A stretch of DNA of 64,000 bases from Alphaproteobacteria bacterium (GCA_017546265.1 JAFYXG010000003.1:4920-68919); one strand, 5' to 3'. Shown: positions 31,746 to 60,042, numbered from the stretch's first letter. Made by a program: numbers and translations. The notes: generated by a model from the letters alone, not told the origin.

Positions 31746-31772
31746 AAAACGCCGTTTTGGCGTTTTTTTTTT
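31746..31772. terminator. Bidirectional terminator (lpxB / 868-aa gene)
   Basis: AAAAAACGCC-GTTTT-GGCGTT-T9. Confidence 0.8.
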
Positions 31773-34377
31773 ATATGCCTGGCTTATATGTTGTTATTTG
31801 CACCCCATCTATTAGGCACTTCGTTTGGCCATTATTATCGGTTTTTGTGCTGTTGGTTCCGTATGGGCATACCTGGTTATCTTTTGTAATCCATTTTTGT
31901 GTACACCATGCCTTGTCACTGTATTTTTCAGACATGTTTTCGGTGTCTTCTGACGGTCGAACCATATCGGGGTTGGTATTCAGGTATTTGCATTCGATGT
32001 CTTCGGCATAAACAGGGATTGTTATTTGATTTGCATCTTTTCCCTCTTGGTTTTCGCATATGTACTGAGAACCGGTGTTGTTTTTACACAGGTATTGTCC
32101 CGCGTCATTTAATAGCGGTTGTGTTGATGGGGACATTATTACAGGTATGGCAGCAACGCAGTTTGCAGATTTGCCCCATTTGCTGCGGCGAGCACCGTTT
32201 TCCCAGCAAGAACATGCACCCCATGATTGTGTGTCCACCATGGTTCTGTAATCGCGTGGACACATGTCTTCGTTTTCAACTACGTTGTATTCAGTGTTTG
32301 TTTGGTTGTATCTGCAAAAGTCTTCTTTAACATATTCGCCTGAAATAATCTTTTGATATGCCACAAAGCGGCCCTGCAGGTTAGCACATTGGGTGGACAG
32401 TTGTGAGAGTACCTGGTTATAAACCTCGGTTGCGACACCCGTTGCACGCAGTTCACGTTCGTTGTCTTTAAGGCCGTATTGGGTACCCGCGGCGTCCATA
32501 TAATCCATGCCGCCGAACACCTCTTCAATCAGGTCTTTGTCATTGCATGCCGCAACGGTGGTTAATTGTTCAGCACACTTTGATACGTATTTGCCGGCGG
32601 TGTCATACAATGTAAACCAGTCTGGGGCGTGGCCCGTTGTAAACAGGCCGCTGTATGGATAGTAGAAGTTTTCATAATTTGTGCCGCCGTATTTATCAAA
32701 ACATTGTTTTGCAACCGCACGACACGCGGTTTTTTTGTCTGTTTCTGTGTGGTTTGTGATATAGTCTGCAATTATATTGCCATTAAACATGTTATCGCAT
32801 GATGTTACATATTCCTGGCACATGGTGGCATTTAATATAATTTTGTCCGGTTGCAGAATAACCGCGGATTCCGAGCTTAACCCCGCCATGGCCGCCGTTA
32901 TTGCCGCATCCCCGTTCATATAGCAGGCTGTAATATAGTCAAAACAGCCCTGTTTAATTTGGGCGACTTTATCTTTTTGCGAATAATAGATTGCCAGCAT
33001 CGCTTTGTCCAGGTATTCAGACCATACAAAGTCGGACTGTTCTACGCACTTGTCCAGTGCGGGTTCGGCAAACTTTTTTACACGTGATTCAAAATTGTAT
33101 ACGAAATTGCGATTGCTGGGGTTTTTGGACAGCTGTTGGTCGGCGGCCTCGACCCCATCGCTGAACACCAGCATGTGTTCCAGTTGATAAAAGTTTTCTA
33201 TGCCGGTAATTGGTGCACCAGTAGAAATGTCAATGAATTCACCGTTGTCCAGGCATTTGTGATAGTTGGCACCGCAGACCTCTTCACTAAGGATTGCCTG
33301 TTCTACTTCGTTAATACAGGTTGTGACATCGGACGAGTTGTGTTTCTGACGGTTTTCTATGCGGGCCAAATCCAACATGGCACCACCTTCGCGGATGGCG
33401 GATTTTAATTGCTTTTGTGTGTTTTCAATTGCAGTTTGGACCGTGTTGCAGTCCTGTTCAATTGCCATCAGATATGCAGTGATGGCACGTTGCAGTGACG
33501 CGTCATTACAGTCTGCACGAACCGCCTGGCGGCACTGGGGGTAAACCGCGTTGTACAGTGCGTTGCCGTTATAGGCGGCAATGGCCTGGCCTACATCGGT
33601 CATGCCAAACGCGTTAACGGTGTCAAATGCAATGTTTATGCTGTTCAAATCGGCGTATTTACCGCTGACCGTGCTGTCTTCGCCACGTATAGAGTTCATA
33701 ATGGCGTTCAATAATGCCTTGGACGCGGAATTGTCGTCTGTGAATGCCTTTTCCCCCTCGGTTTCCTGACGCATGGCGGCGGCCTGGGCGGCGGTCATAC
33801 CAACTGTGTCCAGGTTTTCTGTAAATACAGTCAATTGTTCACCCGCATCTTGCAGTACATCGCGAACCTCGGTCAATTTAAAAACACGGTCGTTGCATGA
33901 ACAGCGGCGATAGTCATCGTTTTTAAGTGTGCAAAATTGATCCATACATGAAAAATATGTGTTCTTGCAACGTTCGTATTCGGCCCCCGTGCGGGTGTTC
34001 GATAGCACTGTGGTGTCGGCGGTCGCAGTACGTGCAGAAATTACGTTTGTTGGTTCGCGTTTGGATGTTGTTTTGGTCGCACTGCGTGCAGATGTGCTGC
34101 GTGTGTTTTTTTTATCTTTTGTTGTTGTTTCGTGTGTAACCGTATTTGTGGCGTTGCGTGATGTGGTTGTGGCGGTGCGTGATGTGGTTGTTGCAGTGCG
34201 AGAATTTAGCGTTGTTGTACGTGGTTTTGTCGTGCGTACAACATTAGTTGCCGTACGCGATTGTGTTGTGTCACTGTCCGGTTTTGTGCGTGAAATGGCC
34301 GTGCCATCACGAACAGCCGCGTTGGCAAAACCAACGCAGACCAGCAAATTTGTAATTAAAACCAGAATTTTATTCAT
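31771..34377 (-). CDS. Large secreted Cys-rich protein, family A (R-[ST]-A-T repeats + CMDQFC core), paralog of 56372-58810
   Basis: Signal peptide MNKILVLITNLLVCVGFANA. A Thr/Arg low-complexity region (SRTATTTSRTATTTSRNAT) precedes YERCKNTYFSCMDQFCTLKNDDYRRCSCNDRV... It is collinear with the 812-aa ORF over roughly 500 aa. Confidence 0.8.
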   Translation of the reverse strand: MNKILVLITNLLVCVGFANAAVRDGTAISRTKPDSDTTQSRTATNVVRTTKPRTTTLNSRTATTTSRTATTTSRNATNTVTHETTTKDKKNTRSTSARSATKTTSKREPTNVISARTATADTTVLSNTRTGAEYERCKNTYFSCMDQFCTLKNDDYRRCSCNDRVFKLTEVRDVLQDAGEQLTVFTENLDTVGMTAAQAAAMRQETEGEKAFTDDNSASKALLNAIMNSIRGEDSTVSGKYADLNSINIAFDTVNAFGMTDVGQAIAAYNGNALYNAVYPQCRQAVRADCNDASLQRAITAYLMAIEQDCNTVQTAIENTQKQLKSAIREGGAMLDLARIENRQKHNSSDVTTCINEVEQAILSEEVCGANYHKCLDNGEFIDISTGAPITGIENFYQLEHMLVFSDGVEAADQQLSKNPSNRNFVYNFESRVKKFAEPALDKCVEQSDFVWSEYLDKAMLAIYYSQKDKVAQIKQGCFDYITACYMNGDAAITAAMAGLSSESAVILQPDKIILNATMCQEYVTSCDNMFNGNIIADYITNHTETDKKTACRAVAKQCFDKYGGTNYENFYYPYSGLFTTGHAPDWFTLYDTAGKYVSKCAEQLTTVAACNDKDLIEEVFGGMDYMDAAGTQYGLKDNERELRATGVATEVYNQVLSQLSTQCANLQGRFVAYQKIISGEYVKEDFCRYNQTNTEYNVVENEDMCPRDYRTMVDTQSWGACSCWENGARRSKWGKSANCVAAIPVIMSPSTQPLLNDAGQYLCKNNTGSQYICENQEGKDANQITIPVYAEDIECKYLNTNPDMVRPSEDTENMSEKYSDKAWCTQKWITKDNQVCPYGTNSTKTDNNGQTKCLIDGVQITTYKPGI

Positions 34378-34473
34378 CTCTGGTGTAAAGTTTAGCAAAA
34401 ATATCAAAAATTACGCAAGTGAATAATAAAATACGTATGTGCATATTTTTTCGGATTTTTTGTTTTTTTCTTG

Positions 34474-34502: not shown

Positions 34503-34513
34503 GTCTGTCGCCT

Positions 34514-34807: not shown

Positions 34808-34830
34808 TGCCGACATTTGTCGGTTTTTTT
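34808..34830 (+). terminator. Terminator after the tRNA cluster
   Basis: CCGAC-ATTT-GTCGG followed by T7. Confidence 0.7.
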
Positions 34831-36694: not shown

Positions 36695-36740
36695 ATTGGG
36701 GATTGTATCACATGGTAAAAGTACTTGCAAGATATAAGAT

Positions 36741-36849: not shown

Positions 36850-36878
36850 AATAACCCGCGATTTCGCGGGTGTTTTTG
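36850..36878. terminator. Bidirectional terminator (tRNA-Val / 105-aa gene)
   Basis: CCCGCG-ATTT-CGCGGG flanked by A- and T-runs. Confidence 0.75.
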
Positions 36879-36882: not shown

Positions 36883-37200
36883 TTATCTTAATCCCTTGGC
36901 ACGACAGCATGCAGAAGCCGCGGATTTCCAATCTGAATAGGTCTTGGACGGGGAACGTAAATCACGCCATGGCTGCCAGCCATTACATTTCTTGGAGGTG
37001 CCGCTGCCGGTGCATTTCGCATAACGGCGAAGTGTACAGGTTTGATTTGATACCTTGCCCGTGTCGGTTGTGCATTTTACTGTGACGTTTTGATTTTTCG
37101 CCTCGTTCTGGCCAAGTTCCTTGGACGATAATACCTGGTATGCGTTGGCGGTGTAAACCGCAGTCAGCATGATTATAAATGCAGATAACAGTTTTCTCAT
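36883..37200 (-). CDS. Small secreted 6-Cys protein (105 aa)
   Basis: Signal peptide MRKLLSAFIIMLTAVYTANA. The mature part contains six Cys (KCTTD...QTCTL...AKCTG...KKCNGW...ACCRAKG). It is the last gene of the A24-peptidase operon. Confidence 0.65.
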   Translation of the reverse strand: MRKLLSAFIIMLTAVYTANAYQVLSSKELGQNEAKNQNVTVKCTTDTGKVSNQTCTLRRYAKCTGSGTSKKCNGWQPWRDLRSPSKTYSDWKSAASACCRAKGLR

Positions 37201-37265: not shown

Positions 37266-38897
37266 TTAATTTGTTGTCCATGGTGTGTCGTTCATAATCA
37301 AATAATACAGTTCTGTGTTGGCTGTACTGGGATTGCGTAAAATCGGACGAACAACGAAAATGTCGACATTGCATGGGGTGGTGGTGTCGTTTTGGATTTC
37401 AGTTAAATCCTGATGAAATTTTGCGGCAAAATCCATCGCCTGAAGAAAGGCGGCATCATCGTCTGCTGGATTTGTGGAATCGCCCATCCACATCAGCCAC
37501 ATGCCATAGTTTACAACATTTTCCTGGCCCACCAGGTCGTCTGCCGATAATAACAACAGTGGTGCAAAATTAGCCCCGTTGGTAAATTCATCGGTGGTGT
37601 TGTCGGTAAAGTCATACATGTCGCCCGCAAATTTAAGTATGCCCGCGGCCAACCCTGCCCCCGCCCCTACTTTGGCAACCATGCCCGCGTTGCGAAGTGT
37701 TGAATCAAACAGCCAGTTGCGAATCTGGGATGAAAATCCACTGGCACGGCCCAATTTTCGGGCACGTTTAATCATGTTGTTTCCCGTCATGGTGGATTTG
37801 GTTGCACGGGCCACGCGGGCGATTATATTTCCACGCTGGGCCAAACGCAGCCCATGACGATATTTGTTCAGGTCTGAAAATGTCTTGGTTGCATCGCGAT
37901 ATTTTCGTACATCTTCACCCGATTCCATTGTCCGAATTGTGTTATTTAATTTGTTTAATTCTGCGGTTTTGTCGGCGATTTTGACTGCATCTTTGGTGCG
38001 GTCCAGTGCTTTTATTTCATCGGTCAGACGTTCTGCGTTTCTGGTTGCACGAATGTAATCGGCAACCGCATCGGTTTTAGCTAATGTTTTTATGGTTGTT
38101 GACAGACCACGCAGTGCACGTGATGCACGGGCGGCCTTGGTCGCACCCAAAACCGCAGCGTATCCGCCAGTTGTAGCAACAGTTAAAATTACGTCCAGTG
38201 CAACCTCGGAATAGCCCAGCCATTCCAGATTGCGATCGCCGGCAACGTAGTAATCGTTTGTGTCATCGTCCAAATTTACCGTTTGGGTTGCAGCACGGTT
38301 TATTGCGTAATTATCGTTTGCTAATGCTGTGCGATTGGTGCATGTGCCACCACGTGGATACAGGGTGTCAATGTTATCCCGAATGTATTCCAATGAAACG
38401 GTATTGTTCTTGTCTGGGCCAACAAATTCGGATAATGAACCATGTTCGACAACCATAATTCCGTACCAGGCTGGGTCTGTGTTTGTCCATATTGTTCCAT
38501 CCGTTGTGTCGCCAATCCGCGGGTTTATATTCAGGTCATCTGTACTGCGTTTTTCTGATAAAGACAGGCGTTGTCGCAATAGTTTTGGTGATGTTTCATA
38601 GTTTACAGTAATATTGCGACCGCCCGGGAAAGTGTATGTGATTGGTGAAAATATAATTGGTGTGGATTCCGGTGCGTTTGCAATTTCGGGACATGATAAT
38701 ACACCGGTCAGAACGTTGCCATCGGCAAAGACGGTGCGTATCCATTCGCCGATTGTTGATTCTGAATCAGATTCGGATACCTTTGTCGCGTTCGTGGCCA
38801 GGGCGTCTGAAAATGCCCGCGATGCACATTGTGTTTCCGCCGCATGGGCAGAATAAACGAAGAGTATGGTAAATGTTAGTACAAATGTTTTTAACAT
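37266..38897 (-). CDS. Large secreted protein, family B paralog (543 aa)
   Basis: Signal peptide MLKTFVLTFTILFVYSAHA. It shares with the 684-aa neighbour WYGIMVVEHGSLSEF / WYGILVVKAGSLDEY, an Ala/Gly-rich helical middle, and C-terminal GQENVVNYGMW...PCNVDIFVVRP / GRENVVSHGAW...QCDVDVYVVQP. Confidence 0.8.
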   Translation of the reverse strand: MLKTFVLTFTILFVYSAHAAETQCASRAFSDALATNATKVSESDSESTIGEWIRTVFADGNVLTGVLSCPEIANAPESTPIIFSPITYTFPGGRNITVNYETSPKLLRQRLSLSEKRSTDDLNINPRIGDTTDGTIWTNTDPAWYGIMVVEHGSLSEFVGPDKNNTVSLEYIRDNIDTLYPRGGTCTNRTALANDNYAINRAATQTVNLDDDTNDYYVAGDRNLEWLGYSEVALDVILTVATTGGYAAVLGATKAARASRALRGLSTTIKTLAKTDAVADYIRATRNAERLTDEIKALDRTKDAVKIADKTAELNKLNNTIRTMESGEDVRKYRDATKTFSDLNKYRHGLRLAQRGNIIARVARATKSTMTGNNMIKRARKLGRASGFSSQIRNWLFDSTLRNAGMVAKVGAGAGLAAGILKFAGDMYDFTDNTTDEFTNGANFAPLLLLSADDLVGQENVVNYGMWLMWMGDSTNPADDDAAFLQAMDFAAKFHQDLTEIQNDTTTPCNVDIFVVRPILRNPSTANTELYYLIMNDTPWTTN

Positions 38898-38900: not shown

Positions 38901-40955
38901 TTATTTGCTTCTGACCTGGAATGCAGGAGTAATGTTATTTTGTATAATGTACCACATGGCCTTGGCACCTGGCAGCTTTTTTGGGTTGCTGATGGCAGGT
39001 TGAACAACGTAAACGTCAACGTCACATTGTGGGTCGGTGGCATTGACTTGATTTATTGCTTCTGTTAATTCTTCGGCAAAACGTGTTGCCTCGTTTAGGG
39101 CATCGTCTTCGTTTTGTGTGCCGATTGTTTCAAATTGAATCCATGCACCATGCGATACAACATTCTCGCGTCCTTCTTCATTATCATCAGATAACAGCCC
39201 AAAACTGTTAAAACTGACATCGCCTGTTGTTGGATCTTTTAATGCTGCGGTACTGTATCCAAAAGATTTTAATAATTCGCGACCGAAATAGTTCGCACCA
39301 ACCGCACCGCCTGCAATTGCCAGGGTTTTAAAACGCTGTGACCATGTTGCACCGGGGCCCAATGCGTTTGCTGTTTTTGGAACTATGTTTTTTGCACCAG
39401 ATGCAACCAATTTCCACGGTCTCCATAGTGATGATGTCCATGATGCAGGTTTTGCTGTTGCAATAGCGGATTCTAGTGCTTTGCCGATATTGTTTAATGA
39501 TTTTGCAGTTGTGCCCTTTTTTACTGTGATACCTGCGTCTGCCAGTGCGTCTATTGCCTGGGTGCGTGTAGTTGCGTCCTTGCCTGCTTTTGCTGCTTTC
39601 GCTGCGTCTGCAGCTTTTTTTAATTTTGTGGTATTTTTTGTTAGCTTTATACTAGTGATGGCTTTTGATGATGCTTGTATTGTTTTTACACCTGCATTGG
39701 ATATTTGTACTGCTGCCTTGGCAGCAGAGGCCTCTGCACTTATTCCAAATGTTGCCAGTGCCAATGCGACTTCACCAGCAATGGCGGCCCAGCCCCAATA
39801 CACATCTTGGCCATCGTAAACGTAAAAATCACTGCCTGACCAAAAGCTATCGTTTTGATTCATTACCGTATGCGTGGCACGATTTATGACATCGTTATCA
39901 TGAGCCATGTGATTGCTGTGCGTACAGGCACGTGCCATACCGAGTGCTTTGTCAGAATTGCCTGGAAAAAACATATCTCTGTGCGATTTCATATATTCTG
40001 TTGATATTATTGGTAAATCTTTTTTTGCGTATTCATCTAAACTGCCAGCCTTGACAACCAATATACCATACCAAGGTAATAATGCCTCGAATTCATCGGG
40101 TATGTTTTCTGTGATTAGTGCAGGCTCGGTTTGGTCCTTTTGGGAGTCTGATGTGGCAGTGGTTGTTTTAGGTGCTTTGTTTTGGTTTTTTGTTAGGCTT
40201 TGGATTGTCTGCTGGCGGGTCAGATAGTCGTCCTGGCTTTCCACTGTGATCGGTTTATAGGCACTTTTATCTTTGTATGATTCATAACCCGCGGCAGAGT
40301 TCGCCATGCGTTCACTGAAGGATAAATCTGCGTAGGTGGTCGGAAATGATGCACGTTCTATGTGCTCGTTGCCCGAACCGTTCATGGACTGTAATTCCTG
40401 CAATTCTAATTTACGTTCAATCACGTCCGTTTGCCAATCCATCAGTTGGATTTTATATGGATTTTTTATCTGAGCATCCGATTCCGTTGTCCCTGCGTTC
40501 GGTGTTGTCGCATGTGGAAATGCGGTCACACCAGTTGGCATTGCGTTGCCATATTTTTGAACGTATTCATCAAACGCAGTGTCAATATAACCCGCACATG
40601 CCGTTGCATAATTGCCGTTTGGTATGCGTGATAATTGCAGCATAACCGTGGGACGGACGTCCGATAACTGGGATTCAATACAATTGTTCTGCATGGCACA
40701 GGTTGTGGCAATCAGCCCAGATACAACACGTTGACAATCGCCCGTTTCTACGTCTGGGCCGTCTGCGTAAACAGGTGTTGGCATGCGTTGATTATATGGT
40801 GCGTTTGGTGACCAATATGGGTTAGATGAATAATTCTGGACGTTTTGGATTACACCATATTTGGAAAATGGTGTGTCTGCAGCATGTGTTAGGCCACAGA
40901 ATATTAAAAACTGGGTGCAAAATATGCTTAATAATGACTGAATACGTATTCTCAT
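38901..40955 (-). CDS. Large secreted protein, family B paralog (684 aa)
   Basis: Signal peptide MRIRIQSLLSIFCTQFLIFCGLTHA. It is 3 nt upstream of the 543-aa paralog; shared motifs are listed there. Confidence 0.8.
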   Translation of the reverse strand: MRIRIQSLLSIFCTQFLIFCGLTHAADTPFSKYGVIQNVQNYSSNPYWSPNAPYNQRMPTPVYADGPDVETGDCQRVVSGLIATTCAMQNNCIESQLSDVRPTVMLQLSRIPNGNYATACAGYIDTAFDEYVQKYGNAMPTGVTAFPHATTPNAGTTESDAQIKNPYKIQLMDWQTDVIERKLELQELQSMNGSGNEHIERASFPTTYADLSFSERMANSAAGYESYKDKSAYKPITVESQDDYLTRQQTIQSLTKNQNKAPKTTTATSDSQKDQTEPALITENIPDEFEALLPWYGILVVKAGSLDEYAKKDLPIISTEYMKSHRDMFFPGNSDKALGMARACTHSNHMAHDNDVINRATHTVMNQNDSFWSGSDFYVYDGQDVYWGWAAIAGEVALALATFGISAEASAAKAAVQISNAGVKTIQASSKAITSIKLTKNTTKLKKAADAAKAAKAGKDATTRTQAIDALADAGITVKKGTTAKSLNNIGKALESAIATAKPASWTSSLWRPWKLVASGAKNIVPKTANALGPGATWSQRFKTLAIAGGAVGANYFGRELLKSFGYSTAALKDPTTGDVSFNSFGLLSDDNEEGRENVVSHGAWIQFETIGTQNEDDALNEATRFAEELTEAINQVNATDPQCDVDVYVVQPAISNPKKLPGAKAMWYIIQNNITPAFQVRSK

Positions 40956-40976: not shown

Positions 40977-41438
40977 TTATATCAAAAACGTCATGCCAAT
41001 CAAAGATAAAAATCCACCCAGTAAAAAGAATGGTGCAAATGGAATGTATTTTTGTTTTTGAATACGTGACCATATCAGACCTGTTATGCATGAAATTACC
41101 AATGCAAATGACAGACCCGTTATGCCCAGCCATATGCCCCCAACCCCAATCAGTTTTATGTCGCCCATGCCAATTGGCGCGGTTCCCGATTTGCGTGTTA
41201 TGTGTTCAAAAACATAACCCAATGTGGCCGCCATGATATACCCAAATGTCCCACCAATAATGCCAGAATATATGTCAATCGGATATGAAAAATATCCAGT
41301 CAGTATCAGTTCCATCAGCATCAGTGGAAATAAATATACGTCTGGTATAATGCGTTGTCGAAAATCTGAAATAGATATCCGGACCGACAAATATGCCGAA
41401 ATCAACAATAAAATAGTAAAAAAGATGTATGAATTCAT
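40977..41438 (-). CDS. Type IV prepilin peptidase-like aspartic protease (A24 family, TadV/CpaA-size, no methyltransferase domain)
   Basis: 153 aa and polytopic. The two catalytic-Asp motifs are SDFRQRIIPD and GMGDIKLIG. Confidence 0.8.
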   Translation of the reverse strand: MNSYIFFTILLLISAYLSVRISISDFRQRIIPDVYLFPLMLMELILTGYFSYPIDIYSGIIGGTFGYIMAATLGYVFEHITRKSGTAPIGMGDIKLIGVGGIWLGITGLSFALVISCITGLIWSRIQKQKYIPFAPFFLLGGFLSLIGMTFLI

Positions 41439-41511: not shown

Positions 41512-42129
41512 ATGAGTAAAGGCTGGGATAATATCGCACTGAAAAAATTAAAAGCACTGACCGGTAAAGGGTTATCTACATCCGAAATCGGTAAGCGGTT
41601 GGGGATGTCAAAAAATGCCATTGTGGGTAAGTTAAATCGCCTGGGGTGGAATGCCAAGGCCACTAAGGAAGATGATAAAAAAGCCGCAACTGCAAAAAAA
41701 GGTTCAGTCGCTAAGGCAGATACCAAGGCAGAAAGTGTAAAAAAATCTGTGACCAAAGGAACGACAACTAAAAAAACGGAAGCTGTCAAAAAAGATACTG
41801 TAAAAACTAAATCAGGTGATACCGTAAAAGAGGTCGCCGGGACTAAGGTTGCTGAAAAAAATACAAAAAAAACAAAGACGGCAGAAAAAGTGCCTGCCGG
41901 AACAAAAGTTAGTGCCAAAGTAAGTGCAAAAAACTTGGCGGTGCATCAAAGAATTGTTCAGCACGCATTGGAAATGGCAAATCTGAAAAGTAATCAGTGT
42001 CGTTGGCCAATTGGCGACCCGGATTCTGAACATTTTCATTTCTGTGGGGAAACGGTCTTTGTCGGTAAACCGTATTGCTATGAACACTGTAAGCAGGCTT
42101 ACCAGTTCGCACCACCTAAGAAAAAATAA
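41512..42129 (+). CDS. gcrA: GcrA cell-cycle regulator
   Basis: N-terminus WDNIALKKLKALTGKGLSTSEIGKRLGMSKNAIVGKLNRLGW, a Lys-rich linker, and C-terminus CRWPIGDPDSEHFHFCGETVFVGKPYCYEHCKQAY. Confidence 0.9.
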   Translation: MSKGWDNIALKKLKALTGKGLSTSEIGKRLGMSKNAIVGKLNRLGWNAKATKEDDKKAATAKKGSVAKADTKAESVKKSVTKGTTTKKTEAVKKDTVKTKSGDTVKEVAGTKVAEKNTKKTKTAEKVPAGTKVSAKVSAKNLAVHQRIVQHALEMANLKSNQCRWPIGDPDSEHFHFCGETVFVGKPYCYEHCKQAYQFAPPKKK

Positions 42130-42156
42130 TCGTAGTCAAATATAGGGAAAATTCAC

Positions 42157-44286
42157 ATGCCAAACGAGAGAGAGAATTTTTATCAGCCATTGACAAGCAA
42201 GGACTTTGAAATTGCAGGGGTGATGTTTCGTGCCTTTTACGATGCAGATGATAAGTTGGTCTTTGTCATGGATTTGACAACAGATGATGTAAAACCAAAT
42301 GTTTTATTGGTTATAAATCCCATTGGTAATCGTAAATGGGATGATATTTTAATGAATGATTTTGGGGTCGATTTGGAAACTGTGCGGCCAAAAAAGGATA
42401 ATAAATATCAAAAACTGGATATAGAATATGCAGGATTGGCGGACTATGATGCCGTAATATCGGCGGTGCAAAGTGGTGAAAATACTGATGTGGCGGTGGC
42501 AAAACTTATGCGTTTCCGTGCAGAGGCTGCCCAGCGGGCTGCATATGAACGGTTGGCTGCGGCGGAACTGACCGCGGAAAAGGCACGCGAAACAATCGAA
42601 AAATCAACGGACAGTGTCGCAGAACTGCAGGATAAGTTAAAAAAATTAAAGGCTAAACTGGCAGAATATCGCCGTAATGTTGGTAAAGAACCAACCAAAC
42701 AATCGGCAGCAAAAATTCTGAAAACAGAATCTCAAATAGATGCGACAAACGATAAGTTGGTGCGTGCAAAAAAACGGCTGGATAACGCCAAGACTCGTTT
42801 GACCGCGGCCGAAGATGATAAAGAACAGGCAATTTATATTTTAAGATTGCTGGATGATAAAGATTCTGAATATACTGATGATGAACAAGTGGCGGATGTG
42901 CCAATGGTGGCACCTGAATTCAAAGTGATGCAGTCGCAACCAGAAAATGGTGATGTTATGGTTGTGGAACCTGCCCCAGTGCCCGCAACACTTCATTCAA
43001 CAGATAATGATACAAACATAGAAGCAAAGGCAACCGAGATGGCAGACGAAGAAGTTAAACCATTGTTTGATAAAAATCCAAATATTTTGGACGAAGAAAT
43101 TGCATTTAAACCAATTGACTTTGATGTGCCTGTCAATAAAACAGAGCCCGTTGAACCGGTTGCAGAGCCGGTGCATGATGTTGCACCATTGTCCTTTACG
43201 CCGCCCGTTGCAGTACGGCCCGTTGTTGATGGTATCGAGGTTGATGATGTTTTTTCGCCGGATTCTGCTGAGCCCGTTGGTGGTTCAATGCTGGACAGTT
43301 TGACACCCGTTGCGTTGCCGTCTGAACAGATTGATTCAGAGTTGCTGTCAACAGTGCAGTCAACACCAGATTTTGTGCCAGAGCCAGTTATGCCCCACCC
43401 CGTTGCGGCGGCAGATGTGCCAAGTGTAAATCCACAACCAATGCCAGAAATCGCACCAGCACCGGTGGATTCTGGGTTCAGACCCGTCTCGCCAATCACA
43501 GGTATGTCAACATCTGAAACCGTTGTTGCAAGTCGTAAGCCAACAATGTTGTACTATGTGATGTTGGTTGTGCTGATTGCTTTGTCGATATTTACGTTGT
43601 GGATGTACCAAAGCAAGGTTGTTAATGATGCTAATCCTGAATTGGGGGCAAAAACTGCACCTGTGGAACAGCCGGTTGTTGTTGAAGAAATTGTCGCAGA
43701 AGAAGTTGAACCAGAACCTGTGGTTATGGTGGAAACTGAAGAACCTGTGGTGTCTGTACCGGTTGTTGATACCGCTGAAATTGTGGAAGATGTAGAACCG
43801 GAACCCGTGGTGGTAACACCTGCCCAGCCCGTAGCGTCAATTCCTGAGGTCCAACCAGAACCTGTGGTTGTGACGCCGGACCCTGTTGTGGAAGAGCCTG
43901 TTAAAAAAATACCAACCGAAGCAGAAATATTGGCATCAAAGCCGTCTTATAATGTTTCTCAAAATGAAAAAATGTTCGTTGCTGATGAAAATTATGAAAC
44001 GGATGACGCTCAGGAAGAAGTTATACAGGAAATTCCAGAAATGGTGGTGAATAAACCTGCTGTGACGGTTGGCGGTGGTGCACCTGTTGCCCAACAACAG
44101 CTCGCCCCTGCACCTGAGATATATGCTGAAGATTTTGTCACAGAAGAAGTTGTGGAAACATGTGCTGATGGTAATTTGCCCGATGCAGATGGTTGCTGTG
44201 CTGGGGAATTCCTGGCCGATATGGGGGGCGGTGAGTACGCATGTTGTGCAGAAGAAACGGGGGAATGTTTCCCGCCTTTGTTCTGA
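42157..44286 (+). CDS. Acidic Pro/Val/Glu-rich membrane-spanning protein with coiled coil and C-terminal Cys cluster (709 aa)
   Basis: Coiled coil (aa about 110-230), TM segment MLYYVMLVVLIALSIFTLWMY, EPEPVVV repeats, and C-terminus CADGNLPDADGCCAGEFLADMGGGEYACCAEETGEC. Confidence 0.7.
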   Translation: MPNERENFYQPLTSKDFEIAGVMFRAFYDADDKLVFVMDLTTDDVKPNVLLVINPIGNRKWDDILMNDFGVDLETVRPKKDNKYQKLDIEYAGLADYDAVISAVQSGENTDVAVAKLMRFRAEAAQRAAYERLAAAELTAEKARETIEKSTDSVAELQDKLKKLKAKLAEYRRNVGKEPTKQSAAKILKTESQIDATNDKLVRAKKRLDNAKTRLTAAEDDKEQAIYILRLLDDKDSEYTDDEQVADVPMVAPEFKVMQSQPENGDVMVVEPAPVPATLHSTDNDTNIEAKATEMADEEVKPLFDKNPNILDEEIAFKPIDFDVPVNKTEPVEPVAEPVHDVAPLSFTPPVAVRPVVDGIEVDDVFSPDSAEPVGGSMLDSLTPVALPSEQIDSELLSTVQSTPDFVPEPVMPHPVAAADVPSVNPQPMPEIAPAPVDSGFRPVSPITGMSTSETVVASRKPTMLYYVMLVVLIALSIFTLWMYQSKVVNDANPELGAKTAPVEQPVVVEEIVAEEVEPEPVVMVETEEPVVSVPVVDTAEIVEDVEPEPVVVTPAQPVASIPEVQPEPVVVTPDPVVEEPVKKIPTEAEILASKPSYNVSQNEKMFVADENYETDDAQEEVIQEIPEMVVNKPAVTVGGGAPVAQQQLAPAPEIYAEDFVTEEVVETCADGNLPDADGCCAGEFLADMGGGEYACCAEETGECFPPLF

Positions 44287-44305: not shown

Positions 44306-44331
44306 AAAAAACCGCCAAATGGCGGTTTTTT
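44306..44331. terminator. Bidirectional terminator (709-aa gene / thyA)
   Basis: A-run-ACCGCC-AAAT-GGCGGT-T5. Confidence 0.8.
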
Positions 44332-48522: not shown

Positions 48523-48523
48523 T

Positions 48524-48550
48524 AAAAATCCCCCAACTGGGGGATTTTAT
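48524..48550. terminator. Bidirectional terminator
   Basis: ATCCCCC-AACT-GGGGGAT-TTT. Confidence 0.8.
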
Positions 48551-48574
48551 GCGTATAAGAAATATAAGCCGTTA

Positions 48575-48784
48575 TTATTCGCCCATTGTCTTTGCTGAAT
48601 TTAATGCATGACGAAGAGCCTGCTCTGCAATTTGACGAATCTTGGGGGCAAATGTTCGCATCTGCATGCGATCCGCAACCGTGTTCCCAAATAAACGAGA
48701 TATGTATTCAATCTGGGTCGGGGCAATAACGTATACATCACTGGTTATGTCTGATGGATTAAGTTTTTTGACCGGCTGTTGCAT
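48575..48784 (-). CDS. Hypothetical 69-aa protein
   Basis: A G-rich RBS lies upstream, with a possible TGATATAAT -10 (minus strand) at 48894-48902. I recognise no family. Confidence 0.4.
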   Translation of the reverse strand: MQQPVKKLNPSDITSDVYVIAPTQIEYISRLFGNTVADRMQMRTFAPKIRQIAEQALRHALNSAKTMGE

Positions 48785-48968
48785 GATTTTTTATCCCCCC
48801 CTGCTTCCCTGATAATTGAAATTGGTTATATCTGATGATTATCATTCTATCATATTTTTTGCAATTTGCCACTTGTTAAATTCACATATTGTGATTATAT
48901 CATAAAGTATCTTGACCGAAAGGCGGAAAATTGCTATATATCTCGTGATAAAATAAGGAAAGAGTGTT

Positions 48969-55925: not shown

Positions 55926-56318
55926 ATGAGTAAGGCAATTAAAAAATCACTCAAAAATGCTGTTGAACAAATAGACAATGCAAAAAAAGTAAATCCGCTG
56001 GATTTGTCTGCAGATCAGGATTTGACAATCGCTTTAATGAACATGATTGCAATTGAAAAAAATTCGAATTATCCAAAATTGGTACAGATGGTTCGTGATA
56101 TTCGGACGGATTTAATGCGGCCGATGCTGGAAAATGTTCAATATGATGGTGATATATGGCCAATGTCCGAGAAATTGTTGGGAAAAATGGCCGAACAAAT
56201 GGACCATGGAAATCATGCGTTGGAGTCAAAAAAAACACAAGAAGCATATGCTGCATATGATGCTGTGTTTGATGCATGGGTAATTTTTATGGGGATTTTG
56301 TGCGAAGTGGAAATTTAG
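55926..56318 (+). CDS. Hypothetical 130-aa helical protein
   Basis: It has no signal peptide and lies immediately upstream of the family A paralog. I recognise no family, and it is not FtsL-like because it lacks a TM segment. Confidence 0.55.
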   Translation: MSKAIKKSLKNAVEQIDNAKKVNPLDLSADQDLTIALMNMIAIEKNSNYPKLVQMVRDIRTDLMRPMLENVQYDGDIWPMSEKLLGKMAEQMDHGNHALESKKTQEAYAAYDAVFDAWVIFMGILCEVEI

Positions 56319-56371: not shown

Positions 56372-58810
56372 TTGAAGCACGTTTTTTATAATCTTGGTAG
56401 ATTTTCTGCATTTTTCGCCGCTGTGTGTGTTGGTGGAAATGTGTTGGCGGCTCAGGCACCTAATCCACGCAGTGCGGTTCAAACAAATGTTTCGGGTCAG
56501 CGGGCAGATGGTCATGTGGTTAATCGTGGTGGTGATAATGCCCAGGTGGTAAATAATTCTGCACGCAGTGCCTCGGCACAACGGGCGGCCGTGGCATCGC
56601 GTTCGGCGACAGGTGCACAGGTCGCTCGCAGTGCAAATCGTCAGAATGCACCAGTTCGTCCAGATGTGACAAGTGTTCGTGCGGCTTCTAATGGTATTAT
56701 TCGTGTGCCGGGTGCTGCGGGACCACGTAGTGCAACAAATGTTTCAAATGCGGGTTTGTCGCGGGCGGCATCAACGGCACGTGCAACCGCTGTGTTTAAT
56801 GATGTTTCCAAGATTGGTGGTGGATATGCCACCTGTCGCGAGGCATATGCAACATGTATGGACCAGTTTTGTGCAAATGCAAATGATACGTATCGCAGAT
56901 GTTATTGCAGTGAAAGATTTACTGAGTTTCGTGACATAGAATATGCCCTGGACGAGGCAAAAACTTTGCTGATGCGGTTCGAGGATAATAATCTGAATGC
57001 AGTTGATAAGACCGCAGCCGAGGTTAATGCAATGTATTCTGCCACAGTTGGTGAGGCCGCAATAAAAAAAGATACCAGTGGGGCACAGGCATTGTTAAAC
57101 GAAATTGGTGATTTGTTGGCAGGTAAGAAAAAGGCCACTACAACCAGTAATTCATATAACTCGCTGGGGGTTATGTCGTTGGATTTTTCAACCGATATTG
57201 GCGATGTTTGGGGTGATGGTACGACCAGTTCTATTTTTGATACGACTACAGGTGTCGATATGACTTCATTAGAAGGTCAGGCACTGTATCAGGCTGCGAA
57301 TAAGCAATGTTTGCAGATGGTTGGTGACCAATGCGAAAGCAAGGCTGTTGTAAATATGACAACCAGTGCATATGGTATTTTGATTACCCAAGATTGTAAC
57401 GCATATGAAAAAAATATAAATTCCAAGCGTGAGGCCGTAAAACAGACTGTGCGTCAGGCTGAAAAAATCCTGCGTGATGCCAGATTGGAAGAATATCGTG
57501 CACATAATTCGGCGGATATTAACGAATGTGTGGCCAAGGTGCGTACCGCATTAACCAGTGATGTTGCATGCGGTGTGAATTACAAGCGGTGTTTGGACTA
57601 TACCGGGGTGTATGTCAATCAGACCACAGGTGATGCAATTTATTCGCCACGTTTGTTCAAATTGGAAGAACTGATTAAGTTAAATGGCGAAGGGGCGGAT
57701 GTTTTAGAACAAAACAGTGAATTTAATGCGTTTTTGAATACTAAACGTATGTATGCAAATACTGCGTTGGATACCTGTCGTGACCAGGCTGATATTGTTT
57801 GGGAAGAATTTAAGCGTACCGCGTTAATCGAAATTGCACAGGCCCAAGATGAAAAGATAGAAGAAGTAAAAATGTCATGTGTCAGCACTATGAGTGAGTG
57901 TTATGATACGCAGACATCAGCATTGCGTGACTTTGATACGACAACAGCCCAGGCGGCGGGGGCGATTTCGGCGTACGCAGCCAAGGAAATGTGTCGTGAA
58001 AAGGTCGTGGCATGTGCGGCACTGTACGGCAATAACACAGAATGTAATTTTGATGCCAATGGACATATATCGGCGGAAGATTCCAAAAAGTGCGGGATTG
58101 TGCAACTGTTGGAATTTGTTGATTCTGTTGATACCGTGCGTGTGGCCGAGGGATGCACAACCGCCGTGGAAAACTATATCGAAGAATTGTGCACGCCAAC
58201 CGCAGGTGAAATTGGTTTTCCGTGGAAATGCCGGAATTTGCCATTGCGGATAACAGATATACCTGTTGACGCCCAGGAAAACGAAAAGGAAAAACCACAG
58301 ACGTTCGAGGGAATGGTTCGTAAATATGCTGTGGATATGTGCAGCGACCCAACATTAGATAAAGAAGAAAGAATTTTTGAAGCCCTGCCCGCTCAGACAA
58401 TGAATCAGGTTAATAAATCCGTTGATGATGTTGTTGAACAGATGGAATATTTGTTGACCGAATTGTGTGATAAAGTTGGTGGTTATTGGATGGAGCCAGG
58501 ATCCAAGGGGGGAAATGATATTGCTGCGTTCTATAACACGGTTTATGGATTGGGAAACAGTCGTGCCGCAGGCAAAACAGACAGTGTTGCAACATGGGGC
58601 AGATGTGTCGACCCAACAATTATGCTGTATTGCCAGGAATATATAGATGGAATCGATATTAAGTCGAATTCGGGAAAACCGTTGGCAACGTATGATCCGG
58701 TTAAGGATGAATGCACAATGACCGATGAATGGTATGAAATGCAGTGCAAAGAACTGGGGACGGGGTATTTTGAAGGCGGTGTATGCTATGTTGTGCCATC
58801 AGAAAACTAA
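56372..58810 (+). CDS. Large secreted Cys-rich protein, family A paralog (812 aa)
   Basis: TTG start, signal peptide MKHVFYNLGRFSAFFAAVCVGGNVLAAQA. R-S-A-T-type repeats (ARSASAQRAAVASRSATGAQVARSAN...PRSAT) precede YATCREAYATCMDQFCANANDTYRRCYCSERF... Confidence 0.8.
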   Translation: MKHVFYNLGRFSAFFAAVCVGGNVLAAQAPNPRSAVQTNVSGQRADGHVVNRGGDNAQVVNNSARSASAQRAAVASRSATGAQVARSANRQNAPVRPDVTSVRAASNGIIRVPGAAGPRSATNVSNAGLSRAASTARATAVFNDVSKIGGGYATCREAYATCMDQFCANANDTYRRCYCSERFTEFRDIEYALDEAKTLLMRFEDNNLNAVDKTAAEVNAMYSATVGEAAIKKDTSGAQALLNEIGDLLAGKKKATTTSNSYNSLGVMSLDFSTDIGDVWGDGTTSSIFDTTTGVDMTSLEGQALYQAANKQCLQMVGDQCESKAVVNMTTSAYGILITQDCNAYEKNINSKREAVKQTVRQAEKILRDARLEEYRAHNSADINECVAKVRTALTSDVACGVNYKRCLDYTGVYVNQTTGDAIYSPRLFKLEELIKLNGEGADVLEQNSEFNAFLNTKRMYANTALDTCRDQADIVWEEFKRTALIEIAQAQDEKIEEVKMSCVSTMSECYDTQTSALRDFDTTTAQAAGAISAYAAKEMCREKVVACAALYGNNTECNFDANGHISAEDSKKCGIVQLLEFVDSVDTVRVAEGCTTAVENYIEELCTPTAGEIGFPWKCRNLPLRITDIPVDAQENEKEKPQTFEGMVRKYAVDMCSDPTLDKEERIFEALPAQTMNQVNKSVDDVVEQMEYLLTELCDKVGGYWMEPGSKGGNDIAAFYNTVYGLGNSRAAGKTDSVATWGRCVDPTIMLYCQEYIDGIDIKSNSGKPLATYDPVKDECTMTDEWYEMQCKELGTGYFEGGVCYVVPSEN

Positions 58811-58827
58811 ATAAAGGTTGAAAATAA

Positions 58828-60042
58828 ATGAAAAAATATTGTATTTCAGTTATTGTGTGTATGATGGTTGTTGGTGGGGCAAATGCGGCTGTTAATATTA
58901 ACAGTTCTGCACGTTCCTGGTGGGGATATAGTAATGCGACAGCAAGTGGTAATGCATCAGGGTTTATTTTAGTGGGCAGTACGGGTAAATCTGGAACACA
59001 TGGAACCTGGGGCGATGAGTGGGGAGTTATTGGTTTGGTTGCTGAAAAAATTGTTGAACATGGTGGATATTTTTGCCCGTATCAGGTGCAATGTGCAAAT
59101 AAAAAAGCAAAAAAAAGGTCTTGGACAAAGTATTTTGTTCCCAGTGGTTTAAGGTATGATCAATGTGTATGGTTGTGTGAAACTGGTTATGCCGGAGTTA
59201 ATTGTGCAAAACAAGATGGTGTGCCATTAAGGTATAACACATCGCCTTTGAATGCAACAAGCAGTGGTTTGTTTTCAGGATTGGCTATTAAAACATCTGG
59301 GGAAGATAGCAATGAAAAATCTTCTTCTGTTGCGGCATTTAATGAATGGGGCGATGATCCAAAATATGTTTCCTTGTTAGGTGGAGTAAAGTTTATGGAG
59401 CATGGTATCATGGCGGCACCTGTTATGATTGAGTGTGGACGTGATAATTGGAGAAAAATAGATTCTTTTGTTAAATCGGTGTCTTTGGCTGGAAAAACTA
59501 AATTATTGTGTGCCGAAGGGTACAAGGCAGATGCAAATGGTACAGATTGTATTCCAATTGTTCCGGCCCAGGAAAAAGTTGCCGCTCAGGAACCGCAACA
59601 GCAGGAAAAAATAGAAGAAGAAAAGTTCTGTTCTGGATTCCCAAAAGATGGATATAAGGCCGAAATGCACAATAAAGTTACACATGGCGATTGTATCAAA
59701 TATTTCTGTGGTGACCCAAACAAAGGCTTTGAATCGGCAATAAATACCAACTGTATCGACTGTTCGGCGGGGTTGCGTGGCGGGGTGCATACTGATACCG
59801 GCGTTTGTGTAAAGTGTTCTGTTGGAATGATGTTTGACGAAAAAACAAATCGCTGTATTAACGCAACCGCATATTCCAAGGTTGATATGACGTATGGCAA
59901 GGGACATACCAAGTTAACTCAGACAGTTCTGGAAAGACAATGTTGGACTAAAACAATACCATCCGAATATCGTGATTGTGTTATAAATGGTGGTGGTAAT
60001 ACCAGTACGACACGTACAGTCACTGATACCACAACAGAATAA
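58828..60042 (+). CDS. Secreted Cys-rich protein with EGF-like/CxxC modules (404 aa)
   Basis: Signal peptide MKKYCISVIVCMMVVGGANA, plus QCVWLCETGYAGVNCAKQ, CAEGYKADANGTDCIP and CIDCSAGLRGGVHTDTGVCVKCSVGMMFDEKTNRCI. Confidence 0.75.
   Translation: MKKYCISVIVCMMVVGGANAAVNINSSARSWWGYSNATASGNASGFILVGSTGKSGTHGTWGDEWGVIGLVAEKIVEHGGYFCPYQVQCANKKAKKRSWTKYFVPSGLRYDQCVWLCETGYAGVNCAKQDGVPLRYNTSPLNATSSGLFSGLAIKTSGEDSNEKSSSVAAFNEWGDDPKYVSLLGGVKFMEHGIMAAPVMIECGRDNWRKIDSFVKSVSLAGKTKLLCAEGYKADANGTDCIPIVPAQEKVAAQEPQQQEKIEEEKFCSGFPKDGYKAEMHNKVTHGDCIKYFCGDPNKGFESAINTNCIDCSAGLRGGVHTDTGVCVKCSVGMMFDEKTNRCINATAYSKVDMTYGKGHTKLTQTVLERQCWTKTIPSEYRDCVINGGGNTSTTRTVTDTTTE

What the first reader, a model, noticed from the sequence alone, without database searches (positions are those of the whole stretch)
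31771..60042. Cross-locus pattern: at least seven exported, cysteine-rich, lineage-specific proteins occupy about 13 kb of an otherwise housekeeping region
The set comprises family A (868 and 812 aa), family B (684 and 543 aa), the 105-aa 6-Cys protein, the 561-aa CxxC-repeat protein and the 404-aa EGF-like protein. The 709-aa protein with the C-terminal cysteine knot adds to this. All have Sec-type signals or TM anchors, and they are inserted singly or in small operons between core genes and tRNAs. Such a density of large disulfide-type exported proteins, some with eukaryote-like modules, points to a coordinated extracellular or periplasmic structure, or to a host-interaction repertoire. It implies a capable oxidative folding system.
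Basis: inference. Interest (0 to 1): 0.7.

Follow-up and report, generated by a model that had tools for sequence, protein, structure and literature searches.

The report
Lineage-specific exported envelope proteins of Enterousia
A tiny-genome gut alphaproteobacterium (Candidatus Enterousia) spends about 40-50% of this 28-kb stretch on exported proteins that match no known family; most are conserved genes of the whole lineage, probably parts of its cell envelope, and one is a fast-changing cysteine-repeat surface protein.

Summary
The genes are real and lie at the stated coordinates. The two paralogue pairs are confirmed (A: 28% identity, E 5e-57; B: 27%, E 4e-31). None of the proteins passes a Pfam or NCBIfam cut-off.

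"Cysteine-rich" holds for five proteins only: A1, A2, p404, p105 and p561 (3.6-8.6% Cys against a 1.1% background). Family B and the 709-aa protein are not enriched.

The window comes from Candidatus Enterousia (order Rs-D84), an anaerobic gut lineage with genomes under 1 Mb. The genes are not insertions. A1, A2, p404, B1, B2, p105 and p709 sit at the same syntenic positions across the relatives examined.
- secA-dnaE-rsmH-p130-A2-p404 was checked in 80 species.
- gcrA-p709 | Peptidase_A24-B1-B2-p105 ... A1 | lpxB was checked in five related contigs.

Family A has about 850 clusters at 50% identity, and every named one is an uncultured alphaproteobacterial MAG. Only p561 is variable. It occupies a slot upstream of secA that holds unrelated cysteine-repeat genes even in the closest relative.

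The genes form five transcription units with no shared upstream motif, so I see a lineage-specific envelope and surface proteome, not one coordinated apparatus. Function remains inferred. Whether an oxidative folding system exists could not be tested.

The parts
31771..34377 (-). A1: family A paralogue, 868 aa from the ATG. Sec signal, then an Arg-rich disordered N-region, then a helical core; 32 Cys in the mature protein. Convergent with lpxB.
   Evidence: Orthologues lie next to lpxB in L086-L091. Bidirectional terminator at 31744-31768.
36883..37200 (-). p105: small secreted protein with 6 Cys. It is the last gene of the Peptidase_A24 operon and has its own strong promoter-like site.
   Evidence: All 6 Cys are invariant and identity to relatives is 64-73%. 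Promoter-like site scoring 11/12 at 37258-37230 and terminator at 36854-36871. A 104-105-aa gene is present in every related locus.
37266..38897 (-). B2: family B protein. Signal peptide, acidic domain, hydrophobic segment at 232-250, basic loop (+18), hydrophobic segment at 406-424, acidic C-domain. Only 4 Cys.
   Evidence: Orthologues are 49-53% identical.
38901..40955 (-). B1: N-module (residues about 16-250, four invariant Cys) followed by the B-domain (about 290-684) shared with B2.
   Evidence: In other species the N-module is joined to GH108 + PG_binding_3 or to a CPL1-like domain.
40977..41438 (-). p153: Peptidase_A24 (type IV leader peptidase family). First gene of the B operon, divergent from gcrA.
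   Evidence: Pfam 5.8e-13, 49.6 bits against a 26.5 cut-off. Both Asp motifs are present: ISDF..IPD and GMGDIK. Promoter-like site scoring 11/12 at 41511-41483. Conserved position.
41512..44286 (+). gcrA (41512-42129) plus p709 (42157-44286). p709 is a bitopic membrane protein with a cytoplasmic coiled-coil N-domain, a TM segment at 463-481, a Pro/Glu/Val-rich outer part and a C-terminal 6-Cys motif.
   Evidence: GcrA Pfam 1.4e-29. The gcrA-p709 pair is kept in relatives. The Cys motif is present in the L086 orthologue and absent from the L088 orthologue. TM segment. Terminator at 44306-44331.
46837..48522 (+). p561: hypervariable cysteine-repeat protein, 48 Cys. Four tandem repeats of 32-33 aa, C-x2-C-P-x4-C-x7-9-C-x2-G-[YFW]-[YF], at residues 375-506. 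It has its own terminator. A G8 tract lies inside the gene at 47169-47176.
55926..56318 (+). p130: small protein with no Sec signal, between rsmH and A2 and conserved there. No terminator was found before A2.
56372..58810 (+). A2: family A paralogue, 812 aa, 28 Cys in the mature protein, 23 of them invariant across 31 aligned family members.
58828..60042 (+). p404: fast-evolving protein with 18 Cys in the mature form, 18 nt downstream of A2 with no terminator between them.
   Evidence: It follows A2 in 56 of 73 species. The invariant columns are nearly all Cys, Gly or Trp. Terminator at 60046-60077.

Best explanation
These genes encode the lineage-specific cell-envelope and surface proteome of Candidatus Enterousia (order Rs-D84). 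It is inherited vertically, and it is neither an island nor a single machine.

Shown:
- The proteins carry Sec signals or TM anchors.
- A1, A2, p404, B1, B2, p105 and p709 occupy fixed syntenic positions among envelope and cell-cycle genes (lpxA/lpxB, gcrA, Peptidase_A24, rsmH) in the relatives examined.
- Their cysteines are almost the only invariant residues.
- The locus between Peptidase_A24 and p105 carries a peptidoglycan hydrolase domain in some species.
- p561 sits in a slot upstream of secA whose content is replaced between close relatives.

Inferred:
- Family A, p404 and p105 are exported through Sec and held together by disulfides. They form stable periplasmic or outer-surface scaffolds.
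- Family A is tethered by its conserved Arg-rich x-R-[ST]-A repeat region to an anionic envelope polymer such as LPS or peptidoglycan.
- The B proteins are inner-membrane proteins. A split acidic periplasmic domain flanks a basic cytoplasmic loop, and they act with the A24 peptidase, the N-module and p105 on or through the cell wall.
- p561 and the other slot proteins are exposed adhesins or antigens that diversify by gene replacement.
For: Organism and lifestyle:
- The loci are titled Candidatus Enterousia or uncultured Alphaproteobacteria MAGs from animal and human guts.
- Genomes are under 1 Mb, lack respiration, and a partner-dependent lifestyle has been proposed (PMC12306168).

Conservation and synteny:
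- A2 is found in 80 of 80 loci (median 53% identity) and p404 in 63 of 80 (33%). Flanking secA, dnaE, rsmH and gpmI are 70-88% identical.
- p709-gcrA | A24-B1-B2-p105 ... A1 | lpxB is kept in L086-L091.

Family size and range:
- More than 1080 homologues, 267 stretches in species-representative genomes, and 848 clusters at 50% identity.
- Distant members carry Rickettsiales, Alphaproteobacteria or Proteobacteria MAG names.

Cysteines under constraint:
- 23 invariant Cys in family A, 16 in p404, 6 in p105 and 4 in the N-module.
- Mature Cys counts are even in A1, A2, p404, p105, B1 and B2.

Link to the cell wall:
- The N-module is fused to GH108 + PG_binding_3 in 7 of 69 relatives, at the same locus.
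- Neighbours include lpxA/lpxB, an M23 peptidase, bactofilin and RodZ.

Family B topology:
- The loop carries +16 to +18 net charge and the flanking domains -10 to -17.

Arg-repeat region of family A:
- 7-9 motif copies against 1-2 in shuffles, present in both paralogues and predicted disordered.

p561 slot:
- Only 13 homologues and none in the 80 loci.
- Nucleotide similarity to the closest relative, where secA is 95% identical, begins 65 nt after the p561 stop.
- 22 of 46 species have a different ORF with at least 4% Cys at that position.
Against: - No function is demonstrated for any of the proteins.
- The AlphaFold models are of low to moderate confidence (pLDDT 60 and 63, pTM 0.37 and 0.43). 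Foldseek found no significant PDB match.
- Localisation beyond the inner membrane is unknown. There is no lipobox, and on reading the sequences I saw no C-terminal beta-barrel signal or recognisable secretion motif.
- No oxidative folding gene was seen, and the lineage is an anaerobe without respiratory chains. Disulfide formation is therefore assumed, not shown.
- p404 is missing downstream of A2 in about a fifth of species.
- The p709 Cys motif is not universal.
- No pilin-like substrate for the A24 peptidase was found nearby.
Confidence: 0.5

Rival explanations
1. The whole set is a partner- or host-interaction repertoire of adhesins and effectors. The reduced-genome bacterium would use it to attach to and exploit another cell: a bacterium, a protist or the gut epithelium.
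For: [quoted passage not shown]
- p561 and the slot proteins have furin-/ephrin-receptor-like Cys repeats. A slot protein from L010 passes the PF07699 cut-off at 25.5 against 23.1 bits.
- p404 evolves fast, at 33% median identity.
- A peptidoglycan hydrolase domain at the N-module locus could attack a partner's wall.
Against: - A1, A2, B1, B2 and p105 are single-copy, syntenic and moderately to well conserved (43-79% identity). They are embedded among envelope-biogenesis genes. This fits structural housekeeping of the lineage better than an arms-race repertoire.
- The N-module proteins with varied C-termini lie at the same orthologous locus in every contig checked, so they are not a multi-copy polymorphic family.
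- No secretion system was seen nearby.
Confidence: 0.25
2. This is the first reader's strong version: all seven or eight proteins are co-regulated subunits of one extracellular or periplasmic structure.
For: - All except p561 are found together in the relatives examined.
- A2 and p404 are adjacent, as are A24, B1, B2 and p105.
Against: - There are five transcription units on both strands, separated by housekeeping genes and terminator-like hairpins.
- There is no shared upstream motif, CtrA box or repeat.
- Profile-profile comparison shows that family A and p404 are unrelated.
- p561 is replaced between close relatives.
- p404 is absent in some species, and the genes between A24 and p105 change their domain make-up.
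Confidence: 0.1
3. The cysteines are metal or redox ligands (Zn, Fe-S, haem, or thiol chemistry in an anoxic gut) and not disulfides. The proteins would then be extracytoplasmic metal- or redox-handling proteins.
For: - The organism is an anaerobe with no respiratory chain or quinone-dependent pathway described.
- No Dsb gene was seen in the sequence examined.
- p561 has seven CxxC motifs.
Against: - There is no CXXCH haem motif in any of the proteins.
- The Cys spacing in p561 matches disulfide-knotted furin-/ephrin-receptor-type repeats, with conserved G-[YF]-[YF] hairpins.
- Even mature Cys counts, and Cys/Gly/Trp as the only invariant residues, are the usual signature of disulfide scaffolds.
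- The alignments show no His or Asp partners conserved alongside the Cys.
Confidence: 0.1

Closest known systems
Chlamydial cysteine-rich outer membrane complex (OmcB about 60 kDa, OmcA about 9 kDa)
   Same: From my own knowledge of that system: a host-dependent, small-genome Gram-negative bacterium invests in one large and one very small Sec-exported cysteine-rich envelope protein, and disulfide cross-linking stiffens the envelope. Here the large proteins are A1 and A2 (3.6-3.8% Cys) and the small one is p105 (6 Cys).
   Different: There is no sequence relationship: no Pfam hit to Chlam_OMP6 or Chlam_OMP3 or to anything else. Enterousia keeps peptidoglycan genes (M23, RodZ and bactofilin). 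Family A is mainly helical. No lipobox is present. Cross-linking is not shown.
Furin-like / ephrin-receptor-like (PF07699, formerly GCC2_GCC3) cysteine repeats, as in Giardia VSPs and ciliate surface antigens
   Same: p561 has four tandem 32-33-aa units, C-x2-C-P-x4-C-x7-9-C-x2-G-[YFW]-[YF]. It sits at a locus whose content differs between close relatives, like variable surface antigens. A slot protein of another species passes the PF07699 cut-off.
   Different: p561 itself scores 16.5 bits against a cut-off of 23.1. It has no VSP family hit. It has no C-terminal TM anchor of the VSP type. Variation here is between species, by gene replacement, and not shown within a clone.
Tad/type IV pilus leader peptidases (CpaA/TadV, Pfam Peptidase_A24)
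   Same: p153 is a 153-aa A24-family aspartyl peptidase with both catalytic motifs. Like CpaA/TadV it lacks a methyltransferase domain, and it heads the B1-B2-p105 operon.
   Different: No Flp or type IV pilin-like ORF, and no pilus assembly gene, was found in the window or in any fetched locus. The downstream proteins have ordinary Sec signals, not prepilin leaders.
Peptidoglycan hydrolases attached to envelope-spanning machines (GH108 / PG_binding_3 lysozymes)
   Same: In 7 of 69 relatives the protein at the B1 position joins the same N-module to GH108 + PG_binding_3. In L086/L087 a separate GH108 gene lies between B2 and p105.
   Different: The window's B1 and B2 carry no GH108 domain. Their C-terminal B-domain has no known relative.

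Membership tests
Chlamydial cysteine-rich OMC proteins (Pfam Chlam_OMP6 / Chlam_OMP3) | Sequence match to the family profile | tested here: not met
   Pfam scan at E <= 0.1 of A1, A2, p105, p404 and p561 returned no such family.
Ephrin_rec_like / furin-like Cys repeats (PF07699) | Profile score above the gathering cut-off (23.1 bits) | tested here: inconclusive
   p561 scores 16.5 bits, E 0.007, over 2 stretches. The slot protein L010:42-2231 scores 25.5 bits and passes.
Ephrin_rec_like / furin-like Cys repeats (PF07699) | Tandem units with C-x2-C ... C ... C-x2-G-aromatic spacing | tested here: met
   Four regular units at residues 375-506, with Cys spacing 3, 6, 8-10, 13-15.
EGF-like domain (claimed for p404) | Pfam EGF-type profile or PROSITE EGF_1/EGF_2 pattern | tested here: not met
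   cEGF scores 13.9 bits against a 26.6 cut-off. None of 29 orthologues hits any Pfam family. There are no EGF_1 or EGF_2 regex matches.
Type IV leader peptidase (Peptidase_A24) for p153 | Profile match above cut-off and two catalytic Asp motifs | tested here: met
   49.6 bits against 26.5. ISDF..IPD and GMGDIK are present.
Tad / type IV pilus locus | Prepilin substrate (G|xxxxE[YF] or G|FTLIE followed by a hydrophobic helix) or assembly genes next to the peptidase | tested here: not met
   A regex and hydropathy scan of all small ORFs of the window and all loci gave 0 hits. No pilus Pfam families appear in the neighbourhoods.
GH108 lysozyme (for B1/B2 of the window) | PF05838 match | tested here: not met
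   No hit in the window proteins. The domain is present only in proteins at the same locus in other species.
Multihaem c-type cytochromes | CXXCH haem-binding motifs | tested here: not met
   Zero CXXCH in all proteins.
Bacterial lipoproteins | Lipobox [LVI][ASTVI][GAS]C at the end of the signal peptide | tested here: not met
   No match in any of the proteins.
Genomic island / mobile insertion | Variable presence, flanking repeats, integrase or IS genes, deviant composition | tested here: not met
   GC stays at 41-47% throughout the region. There are no long direct or inverted repeats. Positions are syntenic in the relatives examined. The exceptions are p561 and p633, which are variable.
Diversity-generating retroelement target (for p561) | Template/variable repeat pair and a nearby reverse transcriptase | tested here: not met
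   No repeat longer than 29 nt in 31-61 kb. No RT was seen among the genes of the window that were scanned.
Disulfide-bonded exported proteins needing Dsb/VKOR | Presence of dsbA/dsbB/vkor/dsbD in the genome | not testable with these tools
   Only the 64-kb window and about 45 kb of orthologous neighbourhood could be read, and none was seen there. A whole-genome search was not possible.

The most novel reading that the evidence does not exclude
Family A with p404, and the Peptidase_A24 / N-module / p105 operon, are parts of a so far undescribed disulfide-stabilised envelope or attachment apparatus. It would be specific to the Rs-D84 order and would underlie its partner-dependent life. Because the lineage lacks respiratory chains, its many exported disulfide proteins would have to be oxidised by a non-canonical route.
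Probability: 0.15. Interest if true: 0.8.

Novelty: new variant of a known kind. Interest (0 to 1): 0.5.

Why it matters
- Candidatus Enterousia and the Rs-D84 order are widespread in human, ruminant, bird and termite guts. Their genomes are under 1 Mb and their way of life is unknown.
- In such a genome, about 12-14 kb of conserved exported proteins of unknown family within one 28-kb stretch is a large investment, so these proteins are likely to be central to how the cell is built or how it holds on to a partner.
- The work defines four new protein families for structural and localisation studies: family A, p404, the N-module/B family and p105.
- It also defines a hypervariable cysteine-repeat locus next to secA that could serve as a marker of strain-level surface variation.
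- It poses a concrete biochemical question: how does an anaerobe without a respiratory chain oxidise so many exported cysteines?

Tried and rejected
- Known families: Pfam, NCBIfam and PHROGs scans of all proteins gave nothing above cut-off. PDB profile searches for family A and p404 found nothing.
- Structure: AlphaFold2 on A2 and B1 with 31-32-sequence alignments gave only pLDDT 60-63. Foldseek against the PDB had no hit at E < 0.09. A saposin-like match to part of the B1 N-module (TM 0.53 over 67 columns, E 2.8) is a lead only.
- Fused domains: Pfam on nine long, distant family A members found no informative fused domains.
- Shared modules: profile-profile comparison of family A against p404 shows they are unrelated.
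- Shared regulation: CtrA boxes are not enriched (2 found, 3.2 expected). A k-mer comparison of eight upstream regions against 14 controls gave only A/T-rich words. No shared repeats. No Rfam hits except tRNAs.
- Polymorphic-toxin reading of the N-module: rejected, because the proteins with varied C-termini lie at one and the same orthologous locus in every contig checked.
- Pilus reading of the A24 operon: no pilin-like ORF.
- Haem, lipoprotein and EGF signatures: none.
- DGR or inverton at p561: no repeats.
- Phage origin: no PHROG support.
- CysRRep repeats of PF21671 (CPL1-like) type described in a 2026 preprint (10.64898/2026.06.07.730663): the spacing does not fit p105 or the p709 tail. 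It is relevant only to a few N-module relatives.

Full report
**What is there**

They are interleaved with:
- lpxB;
- four tRNA genes;
- a 633-aa ORF;
- a Peptidase_A24 gene;
- gcrA (Pfam 1.4e-29);
- genes whose products read as ThyA, trigger factor, SecA, DnaE, RsmH and GpmI. Their orthologues carry the matching Pfam families in related contigs.

The family A pair (31771-34377 minus strand, 56372-58810 plus strand) aligns at 28% identity over 574 residues, E 5e-57. The family B pair (38901-40955 and 37266-38897, both minus strand) aligns at 27% over 473 residues, E 4e-31.

By inspection, seven proteins begin with a basic residue, a hydrophobic core and an A-x-A type cleavage site. p709 has no signal peptide but one strong membrane segment at residues 463-481.

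The seven genes add up to 11.9 kb, or 14.1 kb with p709, of 28.3 kb.

**Is 'cysteine-rich' right?**

Only in part. The background in eleven neighbouring, mainly housekeeping, genes is 1.08% Cys. Against it:
- Enriched: A1 (33 Cys, 3.8%), A2 (29, 3.6%), p404 (20, 5.0%), p105 (6, 5.7%) and p561 (48, 8.6%), with P from 1e-3 to 1e-27.
- At background: B1 (1.2%), B2 (0.7%) and p709 (0.8%).
- p709 merely has six Cys packed into its last 41 residues.

**Which organism**

A family A profile scan of one genome per species found 267 stretches. The best 80 loci are titled Candidatus Enterousia, or uncultured Alphaproteobacteria, Rickettsiales or proteobacterium MAGs, from human, ruminant, chicken and other guts.

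The literature places Enterousia in the GTDB order Rs-D84. It has genomes under 1 Mb, no TCA cycle or respiratory chain, and few biosynthetic pathways. [quoted passage not shown] The order also occurs in termite guts (PMC11257099).

**Not insertions but conserved lineage genes**

In the 80 loci the order secA-dnaE-rsmH-p130-A2-p404-HTH-gpmI is kept:
- A2 is present in 80 of 80, at a median 53% identity.
- p404 is found in 63 of 80, at a median 33%. It directly follows A2 in 56 of 73 loci that have enough downstream sequence.
- secA, dnaE, rsmH and gpmI are 70-88% identical.

On the other side, five related contigs (loci L086-L091) show p709-like <- gcrA | Peptidase_A24 -> N-module protein(s) -> p105 ... 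A1 -> <- lpxB <- lpxA. Identities to the window are A1 45-53%, B1 43-57%, B2 49-53%, p105 64-73% and p709 37-42%.

There is no compositional break and there are no flanking repeats.

Family A is large:
- more than 1080 homologues in the word-indexed search;
- 848 clusters at 50% identity in the exhaustive HMM search, 421 of them below 1e-30;
- a conserved N-terminal core (profile positions about 20-590) and variable C-termini.

The named distant members are again alphaproteobacterial MAGs.

**Anatomy of the conserved cysteine proteins**

- *Family A.* A signal peptide is followed by 110-135 residues predicted as disordered (pLDDT about 30), then a mostly helical body. The disordered part is 10-12% Arg with almost no Lys, Asp or Glu. 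It carries 7-9 copies of an x-R-[ST]-A motif, against 1-2 in shuffles, and this holds in both paralogues. Twenty-three Cys are invariant over the 31 aligned family members, which include the paralogue A1.
- *p404.* The invariant columns over 29 species are 16 Cys plus a few Gly, Trp and Pro, at 29% mean identity. This is the classic signature of a disulfide scaffold evolving fast elsewhere.
- *p105.* It is 105 aa in three relatives and 104 aa in a fourth. All six Cys are invariant and it has a promoter-like site scoring 11/12.
- *Cys counts.* Mature counts are even in A1 (32), A2 (28), p404 (18), p105 (6), B1 (6) and B2 (4).
- *Matches.* None of these proteins matches Pfam, NCBIfam, PHROGs or PDB sequences. 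Foldseek on the modest models gave nothing significant.

**The Peptidase_A24 operon**

p153 is an A24-family leader peptidase with both catalytic Asp motifs.

B1 is modular. Residues 16-250 form an N-module with four invariant Cys. In other species this module is joined to different C-termini:
- the B-domain, as in the window;
- GH108 + PG_binding_3, in 7 of 69;
- a CPL1-like domain, in 4 of 69;
- unknown domains.

These variants are not scattered paralogues. In each contig examined they occupy the same position between the peptidase and p105. One relative also has a separate GH108 gene there. This ties the operon to the peptidoglycan layer.

The B-domain has two hydrophobic segments that flank a loop of +16 to +18 net charge. 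Its two outer parts are acidic (-10 to -17). By the positive-inside rule this suggests a split periplasmic domain with a cytoplasmic loop. That topology is inferred, not shown.

No pilin-like substrate was found in the window or in any locus.

**p709**

It is co-oriented with gcrA, 28 nt downstream, and this pairing is conserved. Its N-terminal domain, coiled coil and TM segment are conserved. The C-terminal Cys motif is present in one orthologue and absent from another. It belongs to the set only loosely.

**p561 is different**

- It has only 13 detectable homologues, the best at 69% identity, and none in the 80 syntenic loci.
- Against the closest relative (L006; SecA 95%, DnaE 94%, A2 79%), nucleotide similarity starts at 48588. 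That is 65 nt after the p561 stop. Upstream lies a different ORF with 43 Cys.
- In 22 of 46 species with enough sequence, the gene upstream of secA is a protein with at least 4% Cys in the same orientation. These proteins are mutually very divergent.
- p561 has four regular 32-33-aa units, C-x2-C-P-x4-C-x7-9-C-x2-G-[YFW]-[YF]. Its PF07699 match is below threshold (16.5 against 23.1 bits). One slot protein from another species passes the cut-off.
- It has its own terminator and a G8 tract inside the gene. A similar tract in the transketolase gene argues for caution about phase variation.

**Coordination**

The genes form five units:
- A1;
- A24-B1-B2(-p105);
- gcrA-p709;
- p561;
- (secA-dnaE-rsmH-)p130-A2-p404.

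They lie on both strands and are separated by terminator-like hairpins. I found no shared upstream word beyond A/T-rich ones, no CtrA-box enrichment and no Rfam element. Co-expression cannot be tested here.

**Interpretation**

The best-supported reading is a vertically inherited, lineage-specific envelope and surface proteome.
- Disulfide-stabilised scaffolds (family A, p404, p105).
- A cell-wall-associated membrane module headed by an A24 peptidase (N-module and B proteins).
- One hypervariable exposed cysteine-repeat protein (p561).

The closest analogy by way of working is the chlamydial cysteine-rich outer membrane complex, and for p561 the furin-like repeat surface antigens of protists. 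Membership in those families was tested and not met, or was inconclusive.

Rivals are a pure partner-interaction repertoire, a single co-regulated structure, and metal- or redox-binding cysteines. The last is weakened by the absence of CXXCH motifs and of conserved co-ligands.

**What remains open**

- Localisation beyond the inner membrane.
- Whether disulfides really form.
- Which system oxidises them in an anaerobe without a respiratory chain.
- The substrate of the A24 peptidase.

**Verdict**

- The families are new, but the kind of thing is known.
- Interest is moderate at 0.5. It rises if these proteins prove to be the attachment or envelope apparatus of a partner-dependent gut lineage.

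Noticed in passing
window 726-2607 (-): A low-GC stretch (36%) holds a two-gene module. One gene is a 442-aa AAA_15/AAA_21 ABC-type ATPase; its best PADLOC hits are HEC-02A (2.9e-26), PD-T4-4_A and PtuA/AriA-like. The other is a 176-aa partner with 7 Cys and no family hit. It looks like an anti-phage defence pair.
   Followed up: partly
window 20669-22198 (+), within the 38% GC stretch 18-22 kb: A 509-aa protein has phage MuF_C and ART-PolyVal (ADP-ribosyltransferase of polyvalent proteins) domains. It may be a remnant of a mobile element.
   Followed up: no
window 34829-36730 (-): A 633-aa coiled-coil protein with no signal peptide or TM segment lies between the tRNA-Leu/Ala/Leu cluster and tRNA-Val. 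It is absent from the same position in related contigs. There one finds other genes (two ORFs of about 230 aa, or rmlABCD) or none. This is a strain-specific gene at a variable tRNA-flanked spot.
   Followed up: partly
window 48523-48968: A 446-nt non-coding spacer lies upstream of secA. Similarity to the closest relative begins inside it at 48588, and most species keep a spacer of 350-650 nt here. There is no Rfam match, and a C7 tract sits at 48795.
   Followed up: partly
window 47169-47176: A G8 homopolymer lies inside the p561 coding sequence, so slipped-strand phase variation of the variable surface protein is possible. Only five G/C runs of 7 or more occur in the 64 kb, but one of them is in the transketolase gene (12541-12548), so this may be chance.
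   Followed up: no
window 16421-17515 (-): A 364-aa protein with a Sec signal and an autotransporter beta-domain (Pfam 1e-9) and no Cys. It is the only recognisable outer-membrane secretion element in the window.
   Followed up: no
A1 residues about 21-136 and A2 residues about 27-154 (window 33970-34317 and 56450-56833): A conserved, disordered, Arg-rich region has 7-9 x-R-[ST]-A motifs and almost no Lys, Asp or Glu. It is kept in both paralogues and in all orthologues inspected, with several invariant Arg positions. No explanation was tested.
   Followed up: partly
L018, L020, L045 (loci around A2 orthologues): Other Enterousia species carry very large Cys-rich exported ORFs near this region: 2200 aa with 68 Cys, 1583 aa with 107 Cys, and 1398 aa with 42 Cys. 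This suggests the genus-wide repertoire is larger than the window shows.
   Followed up: partly
window 26386-31745 and 4977-5870: The neighbourhood of A1 is rich in envelope and morphogenesis genes: bactofilin, an M23 peptidase, lpxA, lpxB and, further away, RodZ. The same block recurs next to the A1 orthologue in L091.
   Followed up: partly
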